A DNA stretch of 35,220 bases from a virus. Shown here in pieces: positions 28,327-35,198 of the stretch (position 1 is its first letter; the number at the start of each line of letters is the position of its first letter). The translations under genes were made by a program, and so were the position numbers. The DNA lies in IMG/VR virus record IMGVR_UViG_3300045988_171378. One strand, given 5' to 3'. Under the pieces are notes generated by a model. That model saw only the letters and a list, made by a program, of their open reading frames with translations, had not been told where the DNA came from and searched no databases.

Positions 28327-28494
28327 TTATGCAACCCTCGGATTATCTCCGCACAACTTTTCATCCGTCGTATCCAAATAATTTTCTACAATGTCTAACA
28401 ACTTTTCGCCGGTTTCATAAGGCATTTCCTGCAATAACGCCGCGATAAAATAATATAAAAACTCCGTGTTATTTTCAGCTTTTTCTTTAAGCAT
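28327..28494 (-). CDS. Small protein, FLYYFIAALL family, copy A (55 aa, below the track cutoff)
   Basis: Hand translation gives MLKEKAENNTEFLYYFIAALLQEMPYETGEKLLDIVENYLDTTDEKLCGDNPRVA. It is paralogous to 34265..34483 and 33867..33974. Confidence 0.5.
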   Translation of the reverse strand: MLKEKAENNTEFLYYFIAALLQEMPYETGEKLLDIVENYLDTTDEKLCGDNPRVA

Positions 28495-28603
28495 TTGCCT
28501 GTCCCTCCTCGTTTAATAAACTTTGCACTTTCCCTACAAGCGGTTTAATTTTATCTTCTCCGATTATGTCGTACAACATTATCAACAGCAAATATAAATC
28601 CAT
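28487..28603 (-). CDS. Small hydrophobic-start peptide (38 aa)
   Basis: MDLYLLLIMLYDIIGEDKIKPLVGKVQSLLNEEGQANA. RBS ggag. 8-nt overlap with the next ORF. Confidence 0.35.
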   Translation of the reverse strand: MDLYLLLIMLYDIIGEDKIKPLVGKVQSLLNEEGQANA

Positions 28604-28624
28604 TTTTTAAATACTCCAATTTAT

Positions 28625-28653
28625 TTGACTTTTTTAACTGCCTGCCGTATAAT
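28625..28653 (+). promoter_or_regulatory. Consensus promoter of structured RNA A
   Basis: TTGACT (28625-28630), 17-nt spacer, TATAAT (28648-28653). Confidence 0.7.
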
Positions 28654-28659
28654 TAGAGG

Positions 28660-28737
28660 GTCGAGGGGCTTAGGCAGGTTGTTTGCCCCTCGTACCTTTT
28701 CGCCGTCCTTCCATACTACCGTTGGGCGGCTTTTTTA
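28660..28737 (+). ncRNA. Structured RNA, copy A (two hairpins, the second a terminator)
   Basis: Hairpin 1: CGAGGGGC (28662-28669) / GCCCCTCG (28685-28692) with a 15-nt loop. Hairpin 2: GCCGTCC (28702-28708) / GGGCGGC (28724-28730) followed by TTTTTT. Conserved with covariation in two further copies. Confidence 0.55.
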
Positions 28738-28753
28738 CTGCCTCACATTCCGA

Positions 28754-28867
28754 TTAACTCGTTTCTATTACTAATAGAAATTCAAGTATCTCGGTATCAC
28801 TCCAATTTCTAGCCCGAAGTTCGTTTATTATTCGGACTAACTCGTCGCTCCGCAACTCTTTTTCCAT
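28754..28867 (-). CDS. 37-aa first ORF of the module A minus-strand operon
   Basis: MEKELRSDELVRIINELRARNWSDTEILEFLLVIETS. RBS aggtaaagga. Paralogue at 33260..33373. Confidence 0.45.
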   Translation of the reverse strand: MEKELRSDELVRIINELRARNWSDTEILEFLLVIETS

Positions 28868-28923
28868 ATTCCTTTACCTGCCTTTTTAGATTTTCGCAAG
28901 GTCTTTCTCAACCTTACGATTAT

Positions 28924-28952
28924 ATTATACTCAATTTTGATTATATAGTCAA
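28924..28952 (-). promoter_or_regulatory. Consensus minus-strand promoter, module A
   Basis: On the minus strand: TTGACT (28952-28947), 17-nt spacer, TATAAT (28929-28924). Confidence 0.65.
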
Positions 28953-28991: not shown

Positions 28992-29021
28992 TTGACAAAA
29001 TATAATCAAATATGCTATGAT
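28992..29021 (+). promoter_or_regulatory. Plus-strand promoter of the module A HTH gene
   Basis: TTGACA (28992-28997), 18-nt spacer, TGcTATGAT extended -10 (29013-29021). Confidence 0.55.
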
Positions 29022-29042: not shown

Positions 29043-29267
29043 ATGGCTGGAGCAAAAACTATAAAACAGTTAATGATTGAGCGAAATATAACAGTTAAGG
29101 ATTTAGCTGACGCTATCGGTATAATACCGCAATCTATGAGTAATAAGCTATATCGTGATAATTTCGGAGCTGATGAGCTCGTAAAAATTGCTAAAATTTT
29201 AGATTGCAAAATCGTCGCGGAAACCAACGATAGCAAGAAACAATTTATTATCGATATCAATGAGTAA
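29043..29267 (+). CDS. HTH DNA-binding protein, module A (74 aa)
   Basis: NITVKDLADAIGIIPQSMSNKLYRDNFGADELVKIAKIL. Paralogue of 34986..35198 (NISEAELARRLGVTPQTLNKKMHTDNFSTADLEQIAAAL). Confidence 0.75.
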   Translation: MAGAKTIKQLMIERNITVKDLADAIGIIPQSMSNKLYRDNFGADELVKIAKILDCKIVAETNDSKKQFIIDINE

Positions 29268-30942: not shown

Positions 30943-30978
30943 GTTTAAGAATTTTACAAAATAACTAGGCTCTTAAAC
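30943..30978 (-). repeat. Solitary CRISPR-like repeat unit (36 nt)
   Basis: The minus strand reads GTTTAAGAGCCTAGTTATTTTGTAAAATTCTTAAAC. It overlaps the stop codon of 30973..31155. Confidence 0.6.
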
Positions 30979-31215: not shown

Positions 31216-32001
31216 TTAAACCTTGCCAAAATGAATTTTAATCAGTTCTATAAAGGCCTTATACTCTTTTCCGTAGATATTATCACCATGCGTTTCTTCA
31301 ACCTTTCGTTCAAACTCATTAAGCATGCCGCAAAAACACCCGCATACTATTTTTACTCCCCCATCTTTTTCAATAAATGCTGTTGTAGTATCAAGCCTTA
31401 AGCCGATTTTAGAGCACCATATAATATCTGCGTCACCGGATACACTCGCGTTGCCGTATACCCTCGCGTTGCCGGATACACTCGCGTCACCGCATACCCT
31501 CGCGTTGCCGTATACCCTCGCGTCACCGCATACACTCGCGTTGCCGGATATCCACGCGGCACCGGATATCCACGCGTCACAGCATACCCTCGCGTCACCG
31601 GATACACTCGCGTTGCCGGATACCCTCGCGTTGCCGTATACACTCGCGTTGCCGGATATCCACGCGTCACCGTATACCCTCGCGTTGCCGTATACACTCG
31701 CGTTGCCGTATACACTCGCGTTGCCGGATACACTCGCGTCACCGGATACACTCGCGTCACCGTATACCCTCGCGTTGCCGTATACACTCGCGTCACCGCA
31801 TACCCTCGCGTCACCGGATACACTCGCGTTGCCGGATATCCACGCGGCACCGGATTGACTTAAATTTTCCCCTTTTTCGACGTACCCGCCTAAGTCGCCT
31901 TTCTTGATTCCTAATGCTTTTATTGCCCTTACTGCTCGTATACGATAAAGCGTCACACCTGACTGTTCTATCGTAATATCTGTTAATTCATATTTCTTCA
32001 C
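31216..32001 (-). CDS. YdcK-like hexapeptide-repeat (beta-helix) protein
   Basis: The N-terminus YELTDITIEQSGVTLYRIRAVRAIKALGIKKGDLGGYVEKGENLSQSGAAWISGNA parallels E. coli YdcK. It is followed by 24 consecutive hexads G(N/D)A(S/R/W)(V/I)(S/Y/C). GTG start. Confidence 0.6.
   Translation of the reverse strand: MKKYELTDITIEQSGVTLYRIRAVRAIKALGIKKGDLGGYVEKGENLSQSGAAWISGNASVSGDARVCGDASVYGNARVYGDASVSGDASVSGNASVYGNASVYGNARVYGDAWISGNASVYGNARVSGNASVSGDARVCCDAWISGAAWISGNASVCGDARVYGNARVCGDASVSGNARVYGNASVSGDADIIWCSKIGLRLDTTTAFIEKDGGVKIVCGCFCGMLNEFERKVEETHGDNIYGKEYKAFIELIKIHFGKV
31420..31851. repeat. 24 tandem 18-nt units (coding hexapeptide repeats)
   Basis: Units such as gcgttgccgtataccctc and gcgtcaccggatacactc repeat head to tail. 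This keeps all frames on both strands open. Confidence 0.9.
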
Positions 32002-32416: not shown

Positions 32417-32452
32417 ATATAAGAGTTTTACAAAATAACAAGGCTCTAAAAC
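32417..32452 (-). repeat. Solitary CRISPR-like repeat unit (36 nt, degenerate 3' end)
   Basis: The minus strand reads GTTTTAGAGCCTTGTTATTTTGTAAAACTCTTATAT. It overlaps the stop codon of 32446..32706. Confidence 0.6.
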
Positions 32453-32749: not shown

Positions 32750-32769
32750 CTGTCACCGCTTTCGTACAT
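32750..32769. repeat. Left arm of the 20-bp perfect inverted repeat bracketing the mini-array (partner 32871-32890)
   Basis: ctgtcaccgctttcgtacat is the exact reverse complement of atgtacgaaagcggtgacag. Confidence 0.95.
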
Positions 32770-32870
32770 GTTTGAGGTTTTACAAAATAACAAGGCTCTC
32801 AAACGATTTTGATTTCCATTTTAAATACCCTCTTGTTTAAGAGTTTTATAAAATAACTAGGCTCTCAAAC
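32770..32870 (-). CRISPR. CRISPR-like mini-array: 36-nt repeat, 30-nt spacer, 35-nt repeat (type II-like repeat; no cas genes)
   Basis: Minus-strand repeats are GTTTGAGAGCCTAGTTATTTTATAAAACTCTTAAAC (32870-32835) and GTTTGAGAGCCTTGTTATTTTGTAAAACCTCAAAC (32804-32770). The spacer is aagagggtatttaaaatggaaatcaaaatc (32834-32805). Confidence 0.5.
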
Positions 32871-32908
32871 ATGTACGAAAGCGGTGACAGACGATTTTGA
32901 TTTCTATT

Positions 32909-33121: not shown

Positions 33122-33150
33122 TTGACTTTTTCCTGCCTCTGCTCTATAAT
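33122..33150 (+). promoter_or_regulatory. Consensus promoter of structured RNA B
   Basis: TTGACT (33122-33127), 17-nt spacer, TATAAT (33145-33150). Confidence 0.7.
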
Positions 33151-33156
33151 AATAGG

Positions 33157-33246
33157 AACGGAGGGGCTTAGGCAGGTTGTTCGCCCCTCTTCCCTTATCG
33201 CCGTCCTACGCTTTTTGCATTTCCGTCGGACGGCTTTTCTTTTTTA
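33157..33246 (+). ncRNA. Structured RNA, copy B
   Basis: Hairpin 1: GAGGGGC (33161-33167) / GCCCCTC (33183-33189), with the same loop as copy A. Hairpin 2: GCCGTCC (33200-33206) / GGACGGC (33228-33234) followed by TTTTCTTTTTT. Confidence 0.55.
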
Positions 33247-33259
33247 CCTTTTTACCTTT

Positions 33260-33373
33260 TTACGTTTTTGCTAAATATGTAAGCATCTCAATGATTTCCT
33301 TATCCGTCCAACCTTTTGTGGTCAGATACTCGATTATCCGTTCGAGCATCTTGTCTTGCATTTCTTCGTCCAT
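33260..33373 (-). CDS. 37-aa first ORF of the module B (lytic-direction) operon
   Basis: MDEEMQDKMLERIIEYLTTKGWTDKEIIEMLTYLAKT. Same RBS context as the module A copy. Confidence 0.45.
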   Translation of the reverse strand: MDEEMQDKMLERIIEYLTTKGWTDKEIIEMLTYLAKT

Positions 33374-33424
33374 TCCTTTACCTGCCTTTTTATATTAGTT
33401 AGCCATTTCGTCTAACTTAATCAT

Positions 33425-33518: not shown

Positions 33519-33908
33519 ATGAAAACTTTGAAACCATTAAGAAAAGCACTGAAACAAACACAAACGGATATAGCTAAATATTTAGGTATTACTGTATCTG
33601 CTTACGGCAATTACGAATTAGGGCAACGCGAACCCGATATAGCCACACTCAACAAGCTTGCCGACTATTTCGACGTTTCCGTTGATTATCTATTAGGCAG
33701 GACTGAAATCCCCAATGCTTACGAAAATATTGTTAATACGCATATAAAAAATAAGTCTGCCGATTTTATTTCGACAGACTTACCCACTGCTATAGCTGAA
33801 AGAATGCGCTCTCATAATTTATCTTTAGAAAAATTTAAAAATTTAACTCCTCAGCAAACTGACGATTTACTTAATATTATCGAGATATTTCTCAATAATC
33901 TCAAGTAG
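33519..33908 (+). CDS. CI-like repressor (XRE HTH N-terminal domain plus C-terminal domain)
   Basis: LKQTQTDIAKYLGITVSAYGNYELGQREPDIATLNKLADYFDVSVDYLLGRTE. 129 aa. Divergent from the Cro-like operon. Confidence 0.8.
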   Translation: MKTLKPLRKALKQTQTDIAKYLGITVSAYGNYELGQREPDIATLNKLADYFDVSVDYLLGRTEIPNAYENIVNTHIKNKSADFISTDLPTAIAERMRSHNLSLEKFKNLTPQQTDDLLNIIEIFLNNLK

Positions 33909-33974
33909 CTTTTCTCCATCCTCGTACTCTAAGTCTTCCAACAATGCCGCAATAAAATAATAGAGAAAATCCAT
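33867..33974 (-). CDS. Small protein, FLYYFIAALL family, copy B (35 aa), antiparallel overlap with the CI-like gene 3' end
   Basis: Hand translation gives MDFLYYFIAALLEDLEYEDGEKLLEIIEKYLDNIK. RBS aaggagg lies 5 nt upstream. Confidence 0.4.
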   Translation of the reverse strand: MDFLYYFIAALLEDLEYEDGEKLLEIIEKYLDNIK

Positions 33975-34264: not shown

Positions 34265-34483
34265 TCACACAGCAAAAGTATTTACTCGTAAAACTCTTTC
34301 ACTTTTAACCTCCGTAACGGGAGCCAAATAATTTTCTACAATGTCTAACAACTTTTCGCCTGCTTCGTAAGGCATTTCCTGCAATAACGCCGCGATAAAA
34401 TAATATAAAAACTCCGCGTTATTTTCTGTTTTCTCTAATACATGCGTCTCTTTTGCTTCCTCTGTGCGTATTCCTAAATCCAT
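34265..34483 (-). CDS. Small protein, FLYYFIAALL family, copy C (72 aa)
   Basis: NNAEFLYYFIAALLQEMPYEAGEKLLDIVENYL is nearly identical to copy A. The DNA at 34327-34430 is a close repeat of 28375-28478. Confidence 0.55.
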   Translation of the reverse strand: MDLGIRTEEAKETHVLEKTENNAEFLYYFIAALLQEMPYEAGEKLLDIVENYLAPVTEVKSERVLRVNTFAV

Positions 34484-34504: not shown

Positions 34505-34533
34505 TTGACTTTTTTACCTGCCTGTCGTATAAT
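34505..34533 (+). promoter_or_regulatory. Consensus promoter of structured RNA C
   Basis: TTGACT (34505-34510), 17-nt spacer, TATAAT (34528-34533). Confidence 0.7.
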
Positions 34534-34539
34534 CAGAGG

Positions 34540-34630
34540 GTGTCAGAGGGGCGGCAAGCGTTACCCCTCTGCCCTCTTGGCGCCGTTCGGTTTTGGTTTA
34601 GTGGACTTTCAACCGAGCGGCTTCCCTTTT
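34540..34630 (+). ncRNA. Structured RNA, copy C
   Basis: Hairpin 1: CAGAGGGG (34544-34551) / CCCCTCTG (34564-34571). Hairpin 2: GCCGTTCGG (34582-34590) / CCGAGCGGC (34613-34621), followed by TTCCCTTTT, a weaker U-run. Confidence 0.5.
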
Positions 34631-34775
34631 AGCCTTCCGCCTTAGCTTCCCTGACTATTTGAGCGGCTTCAGCGGCGTTCTGTGCTTCTGCTTCTATCCG
34701 TCTTGCTATCGTTTCAAGCAATGCGTTTAGTTGCGCATTCGTCATTCCGTTTGCCTCCATTTGCTCAACATTCAT
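34629..34775 (-). CDS. 48-aa first ORF of the module C minus-strand operon
   Basis: MNVEQMEANGMTNAQLNALLETIARRIEAEAQNAAEAAQIVREAKAEG. RBS aaaggaggt. Confidence 0.4.
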   Translation of the reverse strand: MNVEQMEANGMTNAQLNALLETIARRIEAEAQNAAEAAQIVREAKAEG

Positions 34776-34846
34776 TTGGACTCTACCTCCTTTTTGCTTG
34801 CCTTTTTATTCAATCTCGGTCGCTTGTCAACCTTGATTGTATCTTT

Positions 34847-34985: not shown

Positions 34986-35198
34986 ATGAAATTTGCAAAT
35001 CGAATTAAGCACTTGCTTGTAGATTGCGGCAACATATCAGAGGCGGAACTTGCAAGGCGGTTGGGTGTAACACCGCAAACTCTCAACAAGAAAATGCACA
35101 CAGATAACTTTTCCACCGCCGACCTCGAGCAAATAGCCGCCGCTTTGGGCGTATCTTTCGAGGCGTATTTTGTCGCCACCGACGGTACAAAAATATAA
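34986..35198 (+). CDS. HTH DNA-binding protein, module C (70 aa)
   Basis: NISEAELARRLGVTPQTLNKKMHTDNFSTADLEQIAAALG. RBS gggaga. The 3' end lies in the terminal repeat (equivalent to nt 1-77). Confidence 0.75.
   Translation: MKFANRIKHLLVDCGNISEAELARRLGVTPQTLNKKMHTDNFSTADLEQIAAALGVSFEAYFVATDGTKI

What the first reader, a model, noticed from the sequence alone, without database searches (positions are those of the whole stretch)
28662..28883. The RNA loop motif covaries with a site next to the RBS of the opposing small ORF
In modules A and B the hairpin-1 loop contains AGGCAGGT (28672-28679; 33170-33177). Its reverse complement ACCTGCCT lies about 200 nt downstream on the same strand (28876-28883; 33380-33387). 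On the minus-strand mRNA this reads AAAAAGGCAGGTAAAGGAAT-ATG of the 37-aa ORF. In module C both partners have changed together: the loop has GGCAAGC (34553-34559) and the downstream site has GCTTGCC (34796-34802). Joint change in an otherwise diverged module argues for a selected interaction. The options are intramolecular RNA pairing, either in a plus-strand read-through transcript or between leader and intergenic region of the minus-strand mRNA, or a pair of inverted DNA half-sites for a module-specific regulator.
Basis: seen in the sequence. Interest (0 to 1): 0.65.

Follow-up and report, generated by a model that had tools for sequence, protein, structure and literature searches.

The report
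Phage mRNA loop with three competing partners
In this gut-bacterial phage and many relatives, a hairpin loop in the early mRNA matches a site at the start of the small gene upstream. It is also the docking point of an antisense small RNA, so this looks like an undescribed RNA switch, related in logic to plasmid copy-number and phage P1/P4 immunity controls.

Summary
AGGCAGGT occurs 5 times in the window (0.4 expected), only in the three modules. I collected 35 related modules (21 clusters under 80% identity) from viral, genome and metagenome contigs. In all of them the hairpin-1 loop and the ribosome-binding region of the opposing small ORF carry the same 6-9 nt word. At least 9 different words are in use, and permutation gives p<1e-5. 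Among three alignable types, two positions change on both sides and none on one side only.

The pairing is best placed on the window's minus strand, the early mRNA. A site at the small ORF's ribosome-binding region pairs with the loop of a hairpin about 200 nt downstream. The plus-strand sRNA has a conserved consensus promoter and terminator and is antisense to that hairpin. Its loop therefore mimics the leader site and competes for the same loop. A third, less constant copy lies in the sRNA promoter spacer, usually at the top of a hairpin that hides the next gene's Shine-Dalgarno.

Neither the small-protein nor the HTH family tracks the word, which argues against protein recognition. There is no Rfam match and I found no published description. 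The logic resembles ColIb-P9 Inc RNA/pseudoknot and P1 c4/P4 CI. Expression and regulatory direction are untested.

The parts
28625..28653 (+). Module A sRNA promoter (TTGACT-17-TATAAT). Its spacer holds site 1 (CCTGCC, 28641-28646), which reads GGCAGG on the early mRNA.
   Evidence: 11/12 consensus match. The same promoter at the same distance from the loop is present in all 21 clusters. The spacer matches its own loop better than permuted loops.
28659..28736 (+). Module A antisense sRNA (predicted, about 78 nt). Hairpin 1 has arms 28663-28669 and 28685-28691 and loop 28670-28684 carrying AGGCAGGT. Hairpin 2 (28702-28730) plus the T-run 28731-28736 forms the terminator.
   Evidence: Fold energy -35.1 kcal/mol, z = -4.2. 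Promoter. Motif. No Rfam match.
28663..28691 (-). Hairpin 1' on early mRNA A. Its open 15-nt loop holds ACCUGCCU, the shared partner of the leader site, site 1' and the sRNA loop.
   Evidence: The minus-strand fold leaves the whole 15-nt loop unpaired. Predicted duplex with the leader site is -15.4 kcal/mol.
28876..28883 (-). Leader site (site 3) of module A: AGGCAGGU at positions -16 to -9, abutting the SD of the 37-aa ORF.
28754..28867 (-). Small ORF A (37 aa, 'GWTD/GWSD' family; predicted helical hairpin).
   Evidence: ORF. The family has 33 clusters. AF2 pLDDT is 93.5 for the family model, whose first sequence is ORF B. No Pfam or PHROG family.
28924..28952 (-). Early promoter of module A, followed by a 5' stem-loop (about 28918 to 28895) that ends just before the leader site.
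   Evidence: 11/12 consensus match. The 5' stem-loop recurs in the leaders of related modules.
28614..28657 (-). Hairpin 3' of module A. The CUCUAAUU arm (28657-28650) pairs with AAUUGGAG (28621-28614), which is the SD of the next ORF (ATG at 28603). Its apical loop carries site 1'.
   Evidence: P(SD unpaired) is 0.01 against 0.39 for shuffles.
29043..29267 (+). Divergent Cro/CI-type HTH gene of module A (its promoter is at 28992-29021).
   Evidence: Pfam HTH_26, HTH_3 and Phage_CI_repr; PHROG transcriptional repressor.
33122..33150 (+). Module B sRNA promoter. Its spacer holds site 1 (CCTGCCT, 33132-33138).
33157..33245 (+). Module B antisense sRNA. Hairpin 1 has arms 33161-33167 and 33183-33189 and a loop carrying AGGCAGGT at 33170-33177. 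The terminator hairpin is 33200-33234 with T-run 33235-33245.
   Evidence: Fold energy -31.9 kcal/mol, z = -3.2. Motif.
33380..33387 (-). Leader site of module B (AGGCAGGU, positions -14 to -7), next to the SD of the 37-aa ORF at 33260-33373(-). The early promoter is at 33453-33425(-) and the HTH gene at 33519-33908(+).
34505..34533 (+). Module C sRNA promoter. Its spacer carries an A-type site 1 (ACCTGCCT, 34516-34523). It can pair with C's own loop' only through G.U wobbles on the mRNA strand (GGCAGGU:GCUUGCC). This marks a recombinant junction.
34540..34630 (+). Module C antisense sRNA. Hairpin 1 has arms 34544-34551 and 34564-34571 and loop 34552-34563 carrying GGCAAGC. The terminator hairpin is 34582-34621 with a weak T tail.
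   Evidence: Fold energy -42 kcal/mol, z = -3.0. Motif.
34796..34802 (-). Leader site of module C (GGCAAGC, positions -27 to -21), upstream of the SD of the 48-aa ORF at 34629-34775(-), which belongs to the 'MTNAQLNAxLE' family. The early promoter is at 34875-34847(-) and the HTH gene at 34986-35198(+).

Best explanation
Each module is an RNA switch built on the leftward (window minus-strand) early mRNA.

Layout of that mRNA, 5' to 3': a short 5' stem-loop; a 6-9 nt 'leader site' inside the ribosome-binding region of a small ORF; the small ORF; the complement of the sRNA terminator; hairpin 1', whose loop is complementary to the leader site; then, in most modules, a second copy of the site (site 1').

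Hairpin 1' is also the region to which a convergently transcribed sRNA of about 40-95 nt is perfectly antisense. The sRNA loop is therefore the same word as the leader site. The sRNA cannot pair with the leader. Instead it competes with the leader, and with site 1', for the one loop.

Proposed working (inferred):
- Loop' pairing with the leader site occludes initiation on the small ORF. In some types the site covers the SD or the AUG itself.
- Loop' pairing with site 1' (a pseudoknot or kissing contact) remodels the hairpin that hides the SD of the next gene.
- The sRNA kisses loop' and then zips up. This removes the loop from both cis partners and resets both genes, probably holding the distal early genes off in a lysogen.
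- The many loop words would give orthogonal specificity groups.

Shown by sequence analysis: the covariation, the conserved anatomy and the strand preference. Inferred: that both RNAs are expressed, the direction of regulation, and the immunity role.
For: - The motif is enriched and confined to the modules.
- Each window module has a consensus plus-strand promoter, two hairpins and a T-run.
- 35 modules in 21 clusters came from pattern scans. Independently of any RNA pattern, more came from small-ORF protein searches.
- In an unbiased scan, the longest complement between the small-ORF initiation region and the 170 nt after the ORF falls in the hairpin-1' loop in 31 of 35 modules.
- Summed run length of the initiation region against its own loop is 147. 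Permuted loops give 108 +/- 5 (maximum 133 in 1e5). Shuffled initiation regions give 88 +/- 4.
- At least 9 words are in use: GGCAGGU, GGCAAGC, GGCAGGC, GCGGUGA, GAACGAGA, GCAGGC, UGCAGGU, GGUAGC, GUAAGGC.
- In the alignable subset, the 7 core pairs are 100% paired. Two positions change on both sides (G-C to A-U in 4 modules, C-G to U-A in 5). None change on one side only, and sliding the partner destroys pairing.
- Hairpin stems differ with compensation (also L144).
- Internal mismatches are G.U on the mRNA strand: L132 and L078 at the leader site; L074, L083, L105, L092, L078, L095 and window module C at site 1'.
- The antisense promoter scores at least 10/12 with a 17-nt spacer in all 21 clusters, including those found through protein searches.
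- Site 1' against its own loop sums to 121, against 98.6 +/- 4.7 for permuted loops.
- The next gene's SD is sequestered: P(unpaired) 0.28 against 0.51 for shuffles, Wilcoxon p = 0.001.
- One word occurs with unrelated small proteins and unrelated HTH genes.
Against: - There are no expression data. The sRNA and the early mRNA are inferred from promoters and terminators.
- The pairings are only 6-9 bp and cannot be predicted by nested folding.
- The strand-asymmetry argument rests on roughly 6-9 substitutions, several of them at the weaker site 1'. A terminal-extension count was uninformative.
- Site 1' is absent or mismatched in L120, L134, L141 and L149, and is wobble-only in window module C.
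- The SD-hiding hairpin is not predicted in window module B, L005, L078 or L137.
- Many modules came from a pattern that required the GAGGGG/CCCCTC stem and the promoter. The protein-derived modules agree with them.
- The direction of regulation is not determined by any result here.
Confidence: 0.62

Rival explanations
1. A c4/CI-like riboregulator. The hairpin on the early-mRNA strand is cut out of the transcript. It then acts, in cis or in trans, as the real regulator by pairing with the leader site and site 1', blocking translation or causing termination. The plus-strand sRNA would be its antagonist (an anti-antisense).
For: The geometry is the same as P4 seqA-CI-seqC: a loop complementary to one upstream and one downstream site on the same transcript (PMC4825925). 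Modules A and B share one word, so they could cross-act.
Against: There is no match to the Rfam C4 family or any other. Processing signals cannot be tested here. A dedicated, perfectly conserved antisense promoter and terminator has no counterpart in P1 or P4. No extra RBS-adjacent copies of the word occur elsewhere in the window.
Confidence: 0.2
2. Protein recognition. The shared word is bound by a module-encoded protein (the small ORF product or the HTH protein). Binding could be on RNA, with the sRNA loop acting as a decoy for an autoregulator that binds its own leader (CsrA/CsrB-like). Or it could be on DNA, as inverted half-sites.
For: The loop and leader carry the identical word on their own RNAs, as in protein-titration mimicry. 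A copy lies in a promoter spacer, where a repressor could act.
Against: The same word occurs with unrelated small proteins: GGCAAGC with the MTNAQ, GWTD and a third family; GGCAGGC with two families. It also occurs with unrelated HTH genes and operators. The site shifts position within the initiation region and within the spacer. Tolerated substitutions follow G.U pairing rules rather than identity. Separate module-specific repeated operators lie between the divergent promoters.
Confidence: 0.07
3. Pairing within a plus-strand read-through transcript. sRNA that escapes its terminator runs antisense through the small ORF, and its loop pairs with ACCUGCCU about 200 nt downstream.
For: Complementarity exists on this strand too. 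Module C's terminator tail is weak.
Against: The third copy, in the promoter spacer, is not transcribed from that promoter. The informative substitutions would be A.C mismatches on this strand (L078: -8.9 vs -12.5 kcal/mol; L132: -7.4 vs -10.9). The placement of the site on the SD or AUG of the minus-strand ORF would be unexplained.
Confidence: 0.05
4. No function. The repeats are relics of recombination or hairpin-mediated rearrangement between mosaic modules.
For: The modules are mosaic, with breakpoints near hairpin 1 (window module C, L149). One contig ends in a fold-back at the hairpin (L032/L004).
Against: At least 9 different words are each matched at two or three places in otherwise diverged sequence. 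The changes are compensatory, and permutation gives p<1e-5.
Confidence: 0.03

Closest known systems
IncI-alpha/IncB/IncL-M plasmid replication control (ColIb-P9 Inc RNA, repY leader peptide, repZ pseudoknot; Asano & Mizobuchi 1998, as cited in PMC10724649 and summarised in PMC8053102)
   Same: A cis-antisense sRNA targets a stem-loop in an mRNA. The same loop also pairs with a distal sequence near an RBS, so the antisense loop and the distal site are the same word and compete. A small leader ORF lies on the same transcript. The regulated gene's RBS sits in a hairpin.
   Different: This is a phage early operon in Bacillota, not a Rep gene in Enterobacteria. Here the loop has two cis partners, one upstream at the small ORF's own initiation region and one downstream. 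The hairpin lies after the small ORF, not before it. The downstream site is embedded in the antisense promoter. There is no sequence or Rfam relationship.
Phage P1/P7 c4 RNA and satellite P4 CI RNA (Rfam C4 family). CI pairs with seqA upstream and seqC downstream (PMC4825925). C4 RNA blocks icd/ant expression (PMC8198154).
   Same: It is a phage immunity-region RNA hairpin whose loop is complementary to one upstream and one downstream site on the same transcript. From my own knowledge, the loop and target words differ between the heteroimmune relatives P1 and P7.
   Different: In P1 and P4 the regulator is processed from the sense transcript and there is no antisense gene. Here a consensus antisense promoter and terminator are conserved. 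There is no Rfam C4 match. The hosts are Gram-positive.
hok/sok mRNA fold-back (5' tac to 3' fbi pairing), a type I toxin-antitoxin
   Same: A long-range intramolecular pairing involving the 5' translation region controls both translation and access of the antisense RNA (from my own knowledge).
   Different: The small ORFs here are hydrophilic helical hairpins, not membrane toxins. In hok/sok the antisense RNA targets the leader itself.
par of pAD1 (fst RNA I / RNA II) and pCF10 prgQ/prgX convergent transcripts in Enterococcus
   Same: It is a Gram-positive system with convergent promoters, overlapping terminators and short dispersed repeats that set RNA-RNA contacts (from my own knowledge).
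   Different: In par the repeats are direct, so the sRNA pairs with the toxin's initiation region. Here they are inverted, so the sRNA is identical to the leader site and cannot pair with it.

Membership tests
ColIb-P9-type antisense/pseudoknot control | A cis-encoded antisense sRNA complementary to a stem-loop of the regulated mRNA | tested here: met
   A consensus promoter, hairpin and terminator lie on the opposite strand in all 21 clusters. Expression itself is not shown.
ColIb-P9-type antisense/pseudoknot control | The target loop also pairs with a distal sequence next to an RBS, and that sequence is identical to the antisense loop | tested here: met
   Covariation between the leader site and the loop. 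Site 1' covaries too, but less constantly.
ColIb-P9-type antisense/pseudoknot control | The RBS of the regulated gene is sequestered in a hairpin that carries the distal site | tested here: inconclusive
   Predicted in 14 of 19 clusters, Wilcoxon p = 0.001. It is absent in window module B, L005, L078 and L137.
ColIb-P9-type antisense/pseudoknot control | Leader-peptide translation is coupled to translation of the downstream gene | not testable with these tools
   A small ORF is present, but its stop codon lies about 120-150 nt before the next start.
ColIb-P9-type antisense/pseudoknot control | The regulated gene is a plasmid replication initiator, in an I-complex plasmid context | tested here: not met
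   The window is a temperate phage with a serine integrase, portal and terminase. The next ORFs are small unknown or HTH proteins.
P1 c4 / P4 CI (Rfam C4) | A hairpin loop complementary to an upstream and a downstream site on the same transcript | tested here: met
P1 c4 / P4 CI (Rfam C4) | A match to the family covariance model | tested here: not met
   There are no Rfam hits at gathering score. Nothing in the sRNA regions reaches E<=10.
P1 c4 / P4 CI (Rfam C4) | The regulator is produced by processing of the sense transcript | not testable with these tools
   This needs RNA end mapping. Here a dedicated antisense promoter exists instead.
Type I toxin-antitoxin (hok/sok, fst/RNA II, clostridial type I TA) | A small hydrophobic membrane toxin | tested here: not met
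   The small ORFs are charged, amphipathic two-helix proteins.
Type I toxin-antitoxin (hok/sok, fst/RNA II, clostridial type I TA) | The antisense RNA is complementary to the toxin's translation-initiation region | tested here: not met
   The repeats are inverted in the DNA. The sRNA loop is therefore identical, not complementary, to the leader site.
CsrA/CsrB-type protein titration by RNA mimicry | A conserved protein-binding motif shared by sRNA loops and mRNA leaders, with a cognate protein | tested here: not met
   At least 9 unrelated words are in use. No linked protein family tracks the word. Substitutions follow G.U pairing rules.

The most novel reading that the evidence does not exclude
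This is a widespread, undescribed family of programmable RNA switches in temperate phages of gut Clostridia and Tissierellia. One mRNA hairpin loop is contested by two cis sites and an antisense sRNA: its own upstream small-ORF initiation region, and a site at the top of the hairpin that hides the next gene's SD. The loop word defines at least 9 orthogonal specificity (immunity or cross-talk) groups that are shuffled independently of the repressor and small-protein cassettes. This one phage carries three such switches in series, using two specificities.
Probability: 0.4. Interest if true: 0.8.

Novelty: new variant of a known kind. Interest (0 to 1): 0.7.

Why it matters
Antisense control that competes with a long-range pairing is a textbook mechanism, but it is known from a few enterobacterial plasmids and from P1/P4. 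Here the same logic appears, with a different layout, at the lysis-lysogeny regions of many uncultured phages of human-gut Bacillota, where regulation is almost unstudied.

The element is small and modular. It comes in many naturally orthogonal versions. That gives direct compensatory-mutation experiments, a way to predict which phages share RNA specificity, and possible parts for synthetic RNA switches in Gram-positive bacteria. It also assigns a role to two large families of unannotated 37-55 aa ORFs (33 and more than 238 clusters), which mark these switches.

Tried and rejected
- Rfam at gathering score and at E<=10 gave nothing for the sRNAs.
- Megablast of the region against GenBank phages gave no match.
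- The search for related loci with the diverse GWTD alignment failed because no conserved stretch was found. With close members it returned only known loci plus one false hit, L110.
- AF2 models of both small-protein families are confident two-helix hairpins. Foldseek against the PDB gave no usable match, so a Rop/Rom-like role (binding kissing complexes) could be neither supported nor excluded.
- Pfam and PHROGs gave nothing for the small ORFs.
- Counting terminal wobble extensions to decide the strand was uninformative, because A-rich flanks create chance A.C 'extensions'. Only internal substitutions were used.
- A covariance model was prepared (alignment A8) but not built. The stems of divergent types did not align, and the model would only have re-found known loci.
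- A search for extra trans targets of the word in the window found none near an RBS.
- The 'face-to-face promoters sharing one hairpin' in L032 was rejected as biology. It lies at a contig end and is the reverse complement of the same contig's start (L004), so it is probably a fold-back artefact.
- Literature searches found no description of this module.

Full report
**What is at the coordinates.** The window is a temperate phage genome. It has a serine integrase at 889-2304, terminase, portal and head genes, a DnaB-like helicase and a Sak-type annealing protein. Almost all genes are on the minus strand. Three look-alike modules lie at 28.3-29.3 kb (A), 32.9-33.9 kb (B) and 34.3-35.2 kb (C).

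Each module has these parts:
- A Cro/CI-type HTH gene on the plus strand.
- A divergent consensus promoter firing leftward.
- A small minus-strand ORF of 37, 37 or 48 aa.
- A consensus plus-strand promoter facing it (TTGACT-17-TATAAT, 11/12). This promoter is followed by hairpin 1, hairpin 2 and a T-run, giving a predicted antisense sRNA of 78-96 nt (fold z-scores -3.0 to -4.2).

AGGCAGGT occurs five times in 35 kb against 0.4 expected. All five are in these modules: the A and B loops, the A and B leaders, and the promoter spacer of sRNA-C. Module C has GGCAAGC in both loop and leader, but that 7-mer is common in the window. Module C on its own would be weak evidence.

**A point that changes the reading.** The loop copy is on the plus strand and the leader copy on the minus strand, so the two RNAs carry the same word. 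The sRNA cannot pair with the leader. The leader can pair only with the complement of the loop. That complement is the loop of the mirror-image hairpin (hairpin 1') formed by the early mRNA itself about 200 nt downstream, after the small ORF. On that strand the loop is predicted fully open.

**Does the covariation hold elsewhere?** I scanned viral, genome and metagenome contigs with a pattern that fixed the promoter and the GAGGGG/CCCCTC stem but left the loop free. I also searched independently of any RNA feature, using the two small-ORF protein families: 'GWTD' with 33 clusters and 'MTNAQLNAxLE' with more than 238 clusters. I fetched their contigs. This gave 35 modules in 21 clusters under 80% identity. 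They come from human and mouse gut metagenomes and from MAGs of Christensenellaceae, Lachnospiraceae, Subdoligranulum, other Clostridia, and Ezakiella.

In an unbiased comparison I looked for the longest Watson-Crick complement between the small-ORF initiation region (-45 to +12) and the 170 nt after the ORF. It falls in the hairpin-1' loop in 31 of 35 modules.

At least nine words are in use:
- GGCAGGU(U)
- (C)GGCAAGC
- (A)GGCAGGC
- GCGGUGA
- GAACGAGA
- GCAGGC
- UGCAGGU
- GGUAGC
- GUAAGGC

Summed over the 21 cluster representatives, the run length of own site against own loop is 147. Reassigned loops give 108 +/- 5 (maximum 133 in 100,000 permutations). Shuffled leaders give 88 +/- 4. For the three types whose leaders align naturally (12 modules), the seven core pairs are paired in every sequence. 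Two positions change on both sides (G-C to A-U four times, C-G to U-A five times). None change on one side only, and sliding the partner by one column drops pairing to 27-53%. Further modules found later agree (L144-147, L149). The hairpin itself is conserved as a structure, not as a sequence: GAGGGG/CCCCUC, GGGAAA/UUUCCC, CCGAG/CUCGG, CAGGG/CCCUG, AGAGAG/CUCUCU and GGAGCGG/CCGCUCC.

**Which molecule, and RNA or protein?** Four observations point to pairing on the early-mRNA strand.
1. The site is always inside the small ORF's ribosome-binding region, but not at a fixed place. It lies just 5' of the SD in A, B and C. It lies on the SD in L141, L144 and L149. It lies on the AUG and codons 2-3 (AUGCAGGCA, Met-Gln-Ala) in L090, L111, L113, L116 and L134.
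2. When one partner carries an internal substitution, it is G.U-compatible on the mRNA strand and would be A.C on the sRNA strand. L132 has leader GUGAGGC against GCCUUAC (-10.9 vs -7.4 kcal/mol). L078 has leader GGACGAGA (-12.5 vs -8.9). Several site-1' cases behave the same way. The number of such events is small, roughly 6-9.
3. A third copy of the word lies in the spacer of the sRNA promoter. It is transcribed only as part of the early mRNA. It matches its own loop better than permuted loops (121 vs 98.6 +/- 4.7, maximum 120 in 100,000).
4. The word does not follow the linked proteins. GGCAAGC occurs with three unrelated small proteins and GGCAGGC with two. AGGCAGGU occurs with at least three different HTH genes and operator sets. 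The intergenic regions also have their own module-specific repeated operators.

These points disfavour a protein-binding word, DNA half-sites and a plus-strand read-through RNA.

**The antisense gene is part of the family.** All 21 clusters, including the ten found only through proteins, have a promoter scoring at least 10/12 with a 17-nt spacer. Its -10 box ends 13-19 nt before the loop. A T-run follows the last hairpin on that strand in most of them. In the Ezakiella-type modules hairpin 1 itself is the terminator.

**The downstream half.** In 14 of 19 clusters the stretch after hairpin 1' folds so that a CU-rich arm pairs with the Shine-Dalgarno of the next ORF. That arm is encoded by the sRNA -10 box and discriminator. 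Site 1' sits in the apical loop of this hairpin. Mean P(SD unpaired) is 0.28 against 0.51 when the upstream arm is shuffled (Wilcoxon p = 0.001). Window modules A and C show this hairpin; B does not. Site 1' is the least constant element. It is missing or foreign in L120, L134, L141 and L149. In window module C it is an A-type word that can pair with C's loop only through two G.U wobbles. This is consistent with recombination breakpoints between the -10 box and hairpin 1.

**Mechanism proposed.** The loop of hairpin 1' is a hub with three mutually exclusive partners.
- Pairing with the leader site should block initiation on the small ORF. This is inferred, and is strongest where the site covers the SD or the AUG.
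- Pairing with site 1' should remodel the SD-hiding hairpin of the next gene. This is inferred by analogy.
- The sRNA, abundant from its consensus promoter, should capture the loop and then form a full duplex, releasing both cis sites. This is inferred.

The direction of each effect cannot be read from sequence. The diversity of words suggests selection for orthogonality of a diffusible regulator, as in plasmid incompatibility or P1/P7 heteroimmunity. Modules A and B of this phage share one specificity and C has another.

**Comparison with known systems.** The closest logic is ColIb-P9 and the IncB plasmids. There the Inc antisense RNA blocks leader-peptide translation and also prevents a pseudoknot that repZ translation needs (PMC8053102; primary papers listed in PMC10724649). 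The geometry of 'one loop, one upstream and one downstream target' is that of P4 CI with seqA and seqC (PMC4825925) and of P1 c4 (PMC8198154).

Membership in either family fails. There is no Rfam match. The regulated genes and hosts differ. The hairpin lies after the small ORF. The loop has two cis partners. The downstream partner is built into the antisense promoter. Type I toxin-antitoxin membership fails because the small proteins are hydrophilic two-helix hairpins and because the sRNA is not complementary to the initiation region. Literature searches found no description of this module. I rate it a new variant of a known kind.

**Limits.**
- Nothing here shows that either RNA is made.
- The pattern-derived loci share a stem and promoter by construction.
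- The clusters are related by descent, so the counts are not fully independent events.
- The pairings are pseudoknot-type and rest on covariation, not on energy models.
- The strand call rests on few substitutions.

Noticed in passing
window 30943-30978, 32417-32452, 32769-32804, 32835-32870 (all minus strand); also L091 next to an sRNA terminator: Four copies of a roughly 36-nt element, GTTT[A/T/G]AGAGCCT[A/T]GTTATTTTGTAAAA..AAAC, lie in intergenic spots of the early region. It looks like a type II CRISPR direct repeat and gives weak Rfam CRISPR-DR22 hits of 21.8 and 18.6 bits, below threshold. Two copies start 66 nt apart (36+30). They are framed by a perfect 27-nt inverted repeat at 32750-32776 / 32864-32890. 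It could be solitary repeat units or a mini-array (RNA anti-CRISPR-like), or simply REP/terminator-like elements.
   Followed up: partly
window 31358-31950 within ORF 31216-32001(-): About 22 tandem 18-nt units encode a hexapeptide-repeat protein (GNASVYGNARVYGDASVSG...). It matches PHROGs of unknown function (phrog_7964, phrog_5070).
   Followed up: no
L032 12555-12660 and L004 1-90 (both from IMGVR_UViG_3300045988_182789): The contig ends with an A-like sRNA promoter running into hairpin 1 and then into an inverted B-type promoter. This end is the reverse complement of the contig's own start. It is probably a fold-back chimera formed at the hairpin during amplification or assembly, but a real inversion at the hairpin is not excluded.
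   Followed up: partly
window 28327-28494(-), 33867-33974(-), 34265-34483(-): Three paralogous small acidic ORFs (..FLYYFIAALL[QE][ED][ML].YE.GEKLL[DE]I[VI]E[NK]YL..) lie in the leftward operons shortly downstream of the sRNA region in A and C, and after module B's HTH gene. They have no Pfam or PHROG family.
   Followed up: no
window 28895-28918(-); equivalent leaders in L055, L079, L083, L111, L113, L120, L122: A conserved 5' stem-loop (UAAGGUUGAG..ACCUUA-like) lies at the very start of the early mRNA and ends immediately before the leader site. It recurs across modules with different loop words.
   Followed up: partly
L090, L111, L113, L116 and proteins P0027-P0031, P0050-P0081: Two otherwise unrelated small-protein families share the N-terminal extension MQA(N/E)EKVFE.... 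In these modules the RNA site overlaps the start codon (AUGCAGGCA). An RNA pairing constraint therefore seems to fix the first three codons, and the leader plus N-terminus appears to move as one cassette.
   Followed up: partly
window 34505-34540 versus 28625-28660: Module C's left part (next ORF, RBS, sRNA promoter and the first bases of the sRNA) is nearly identical to module A's. Similarity stops at hairpin 1. This is a recombination junction inside the switch, and it leaves C with a foreign site 1. L149 shows the same kind of mismatch.
   Followed up: yes
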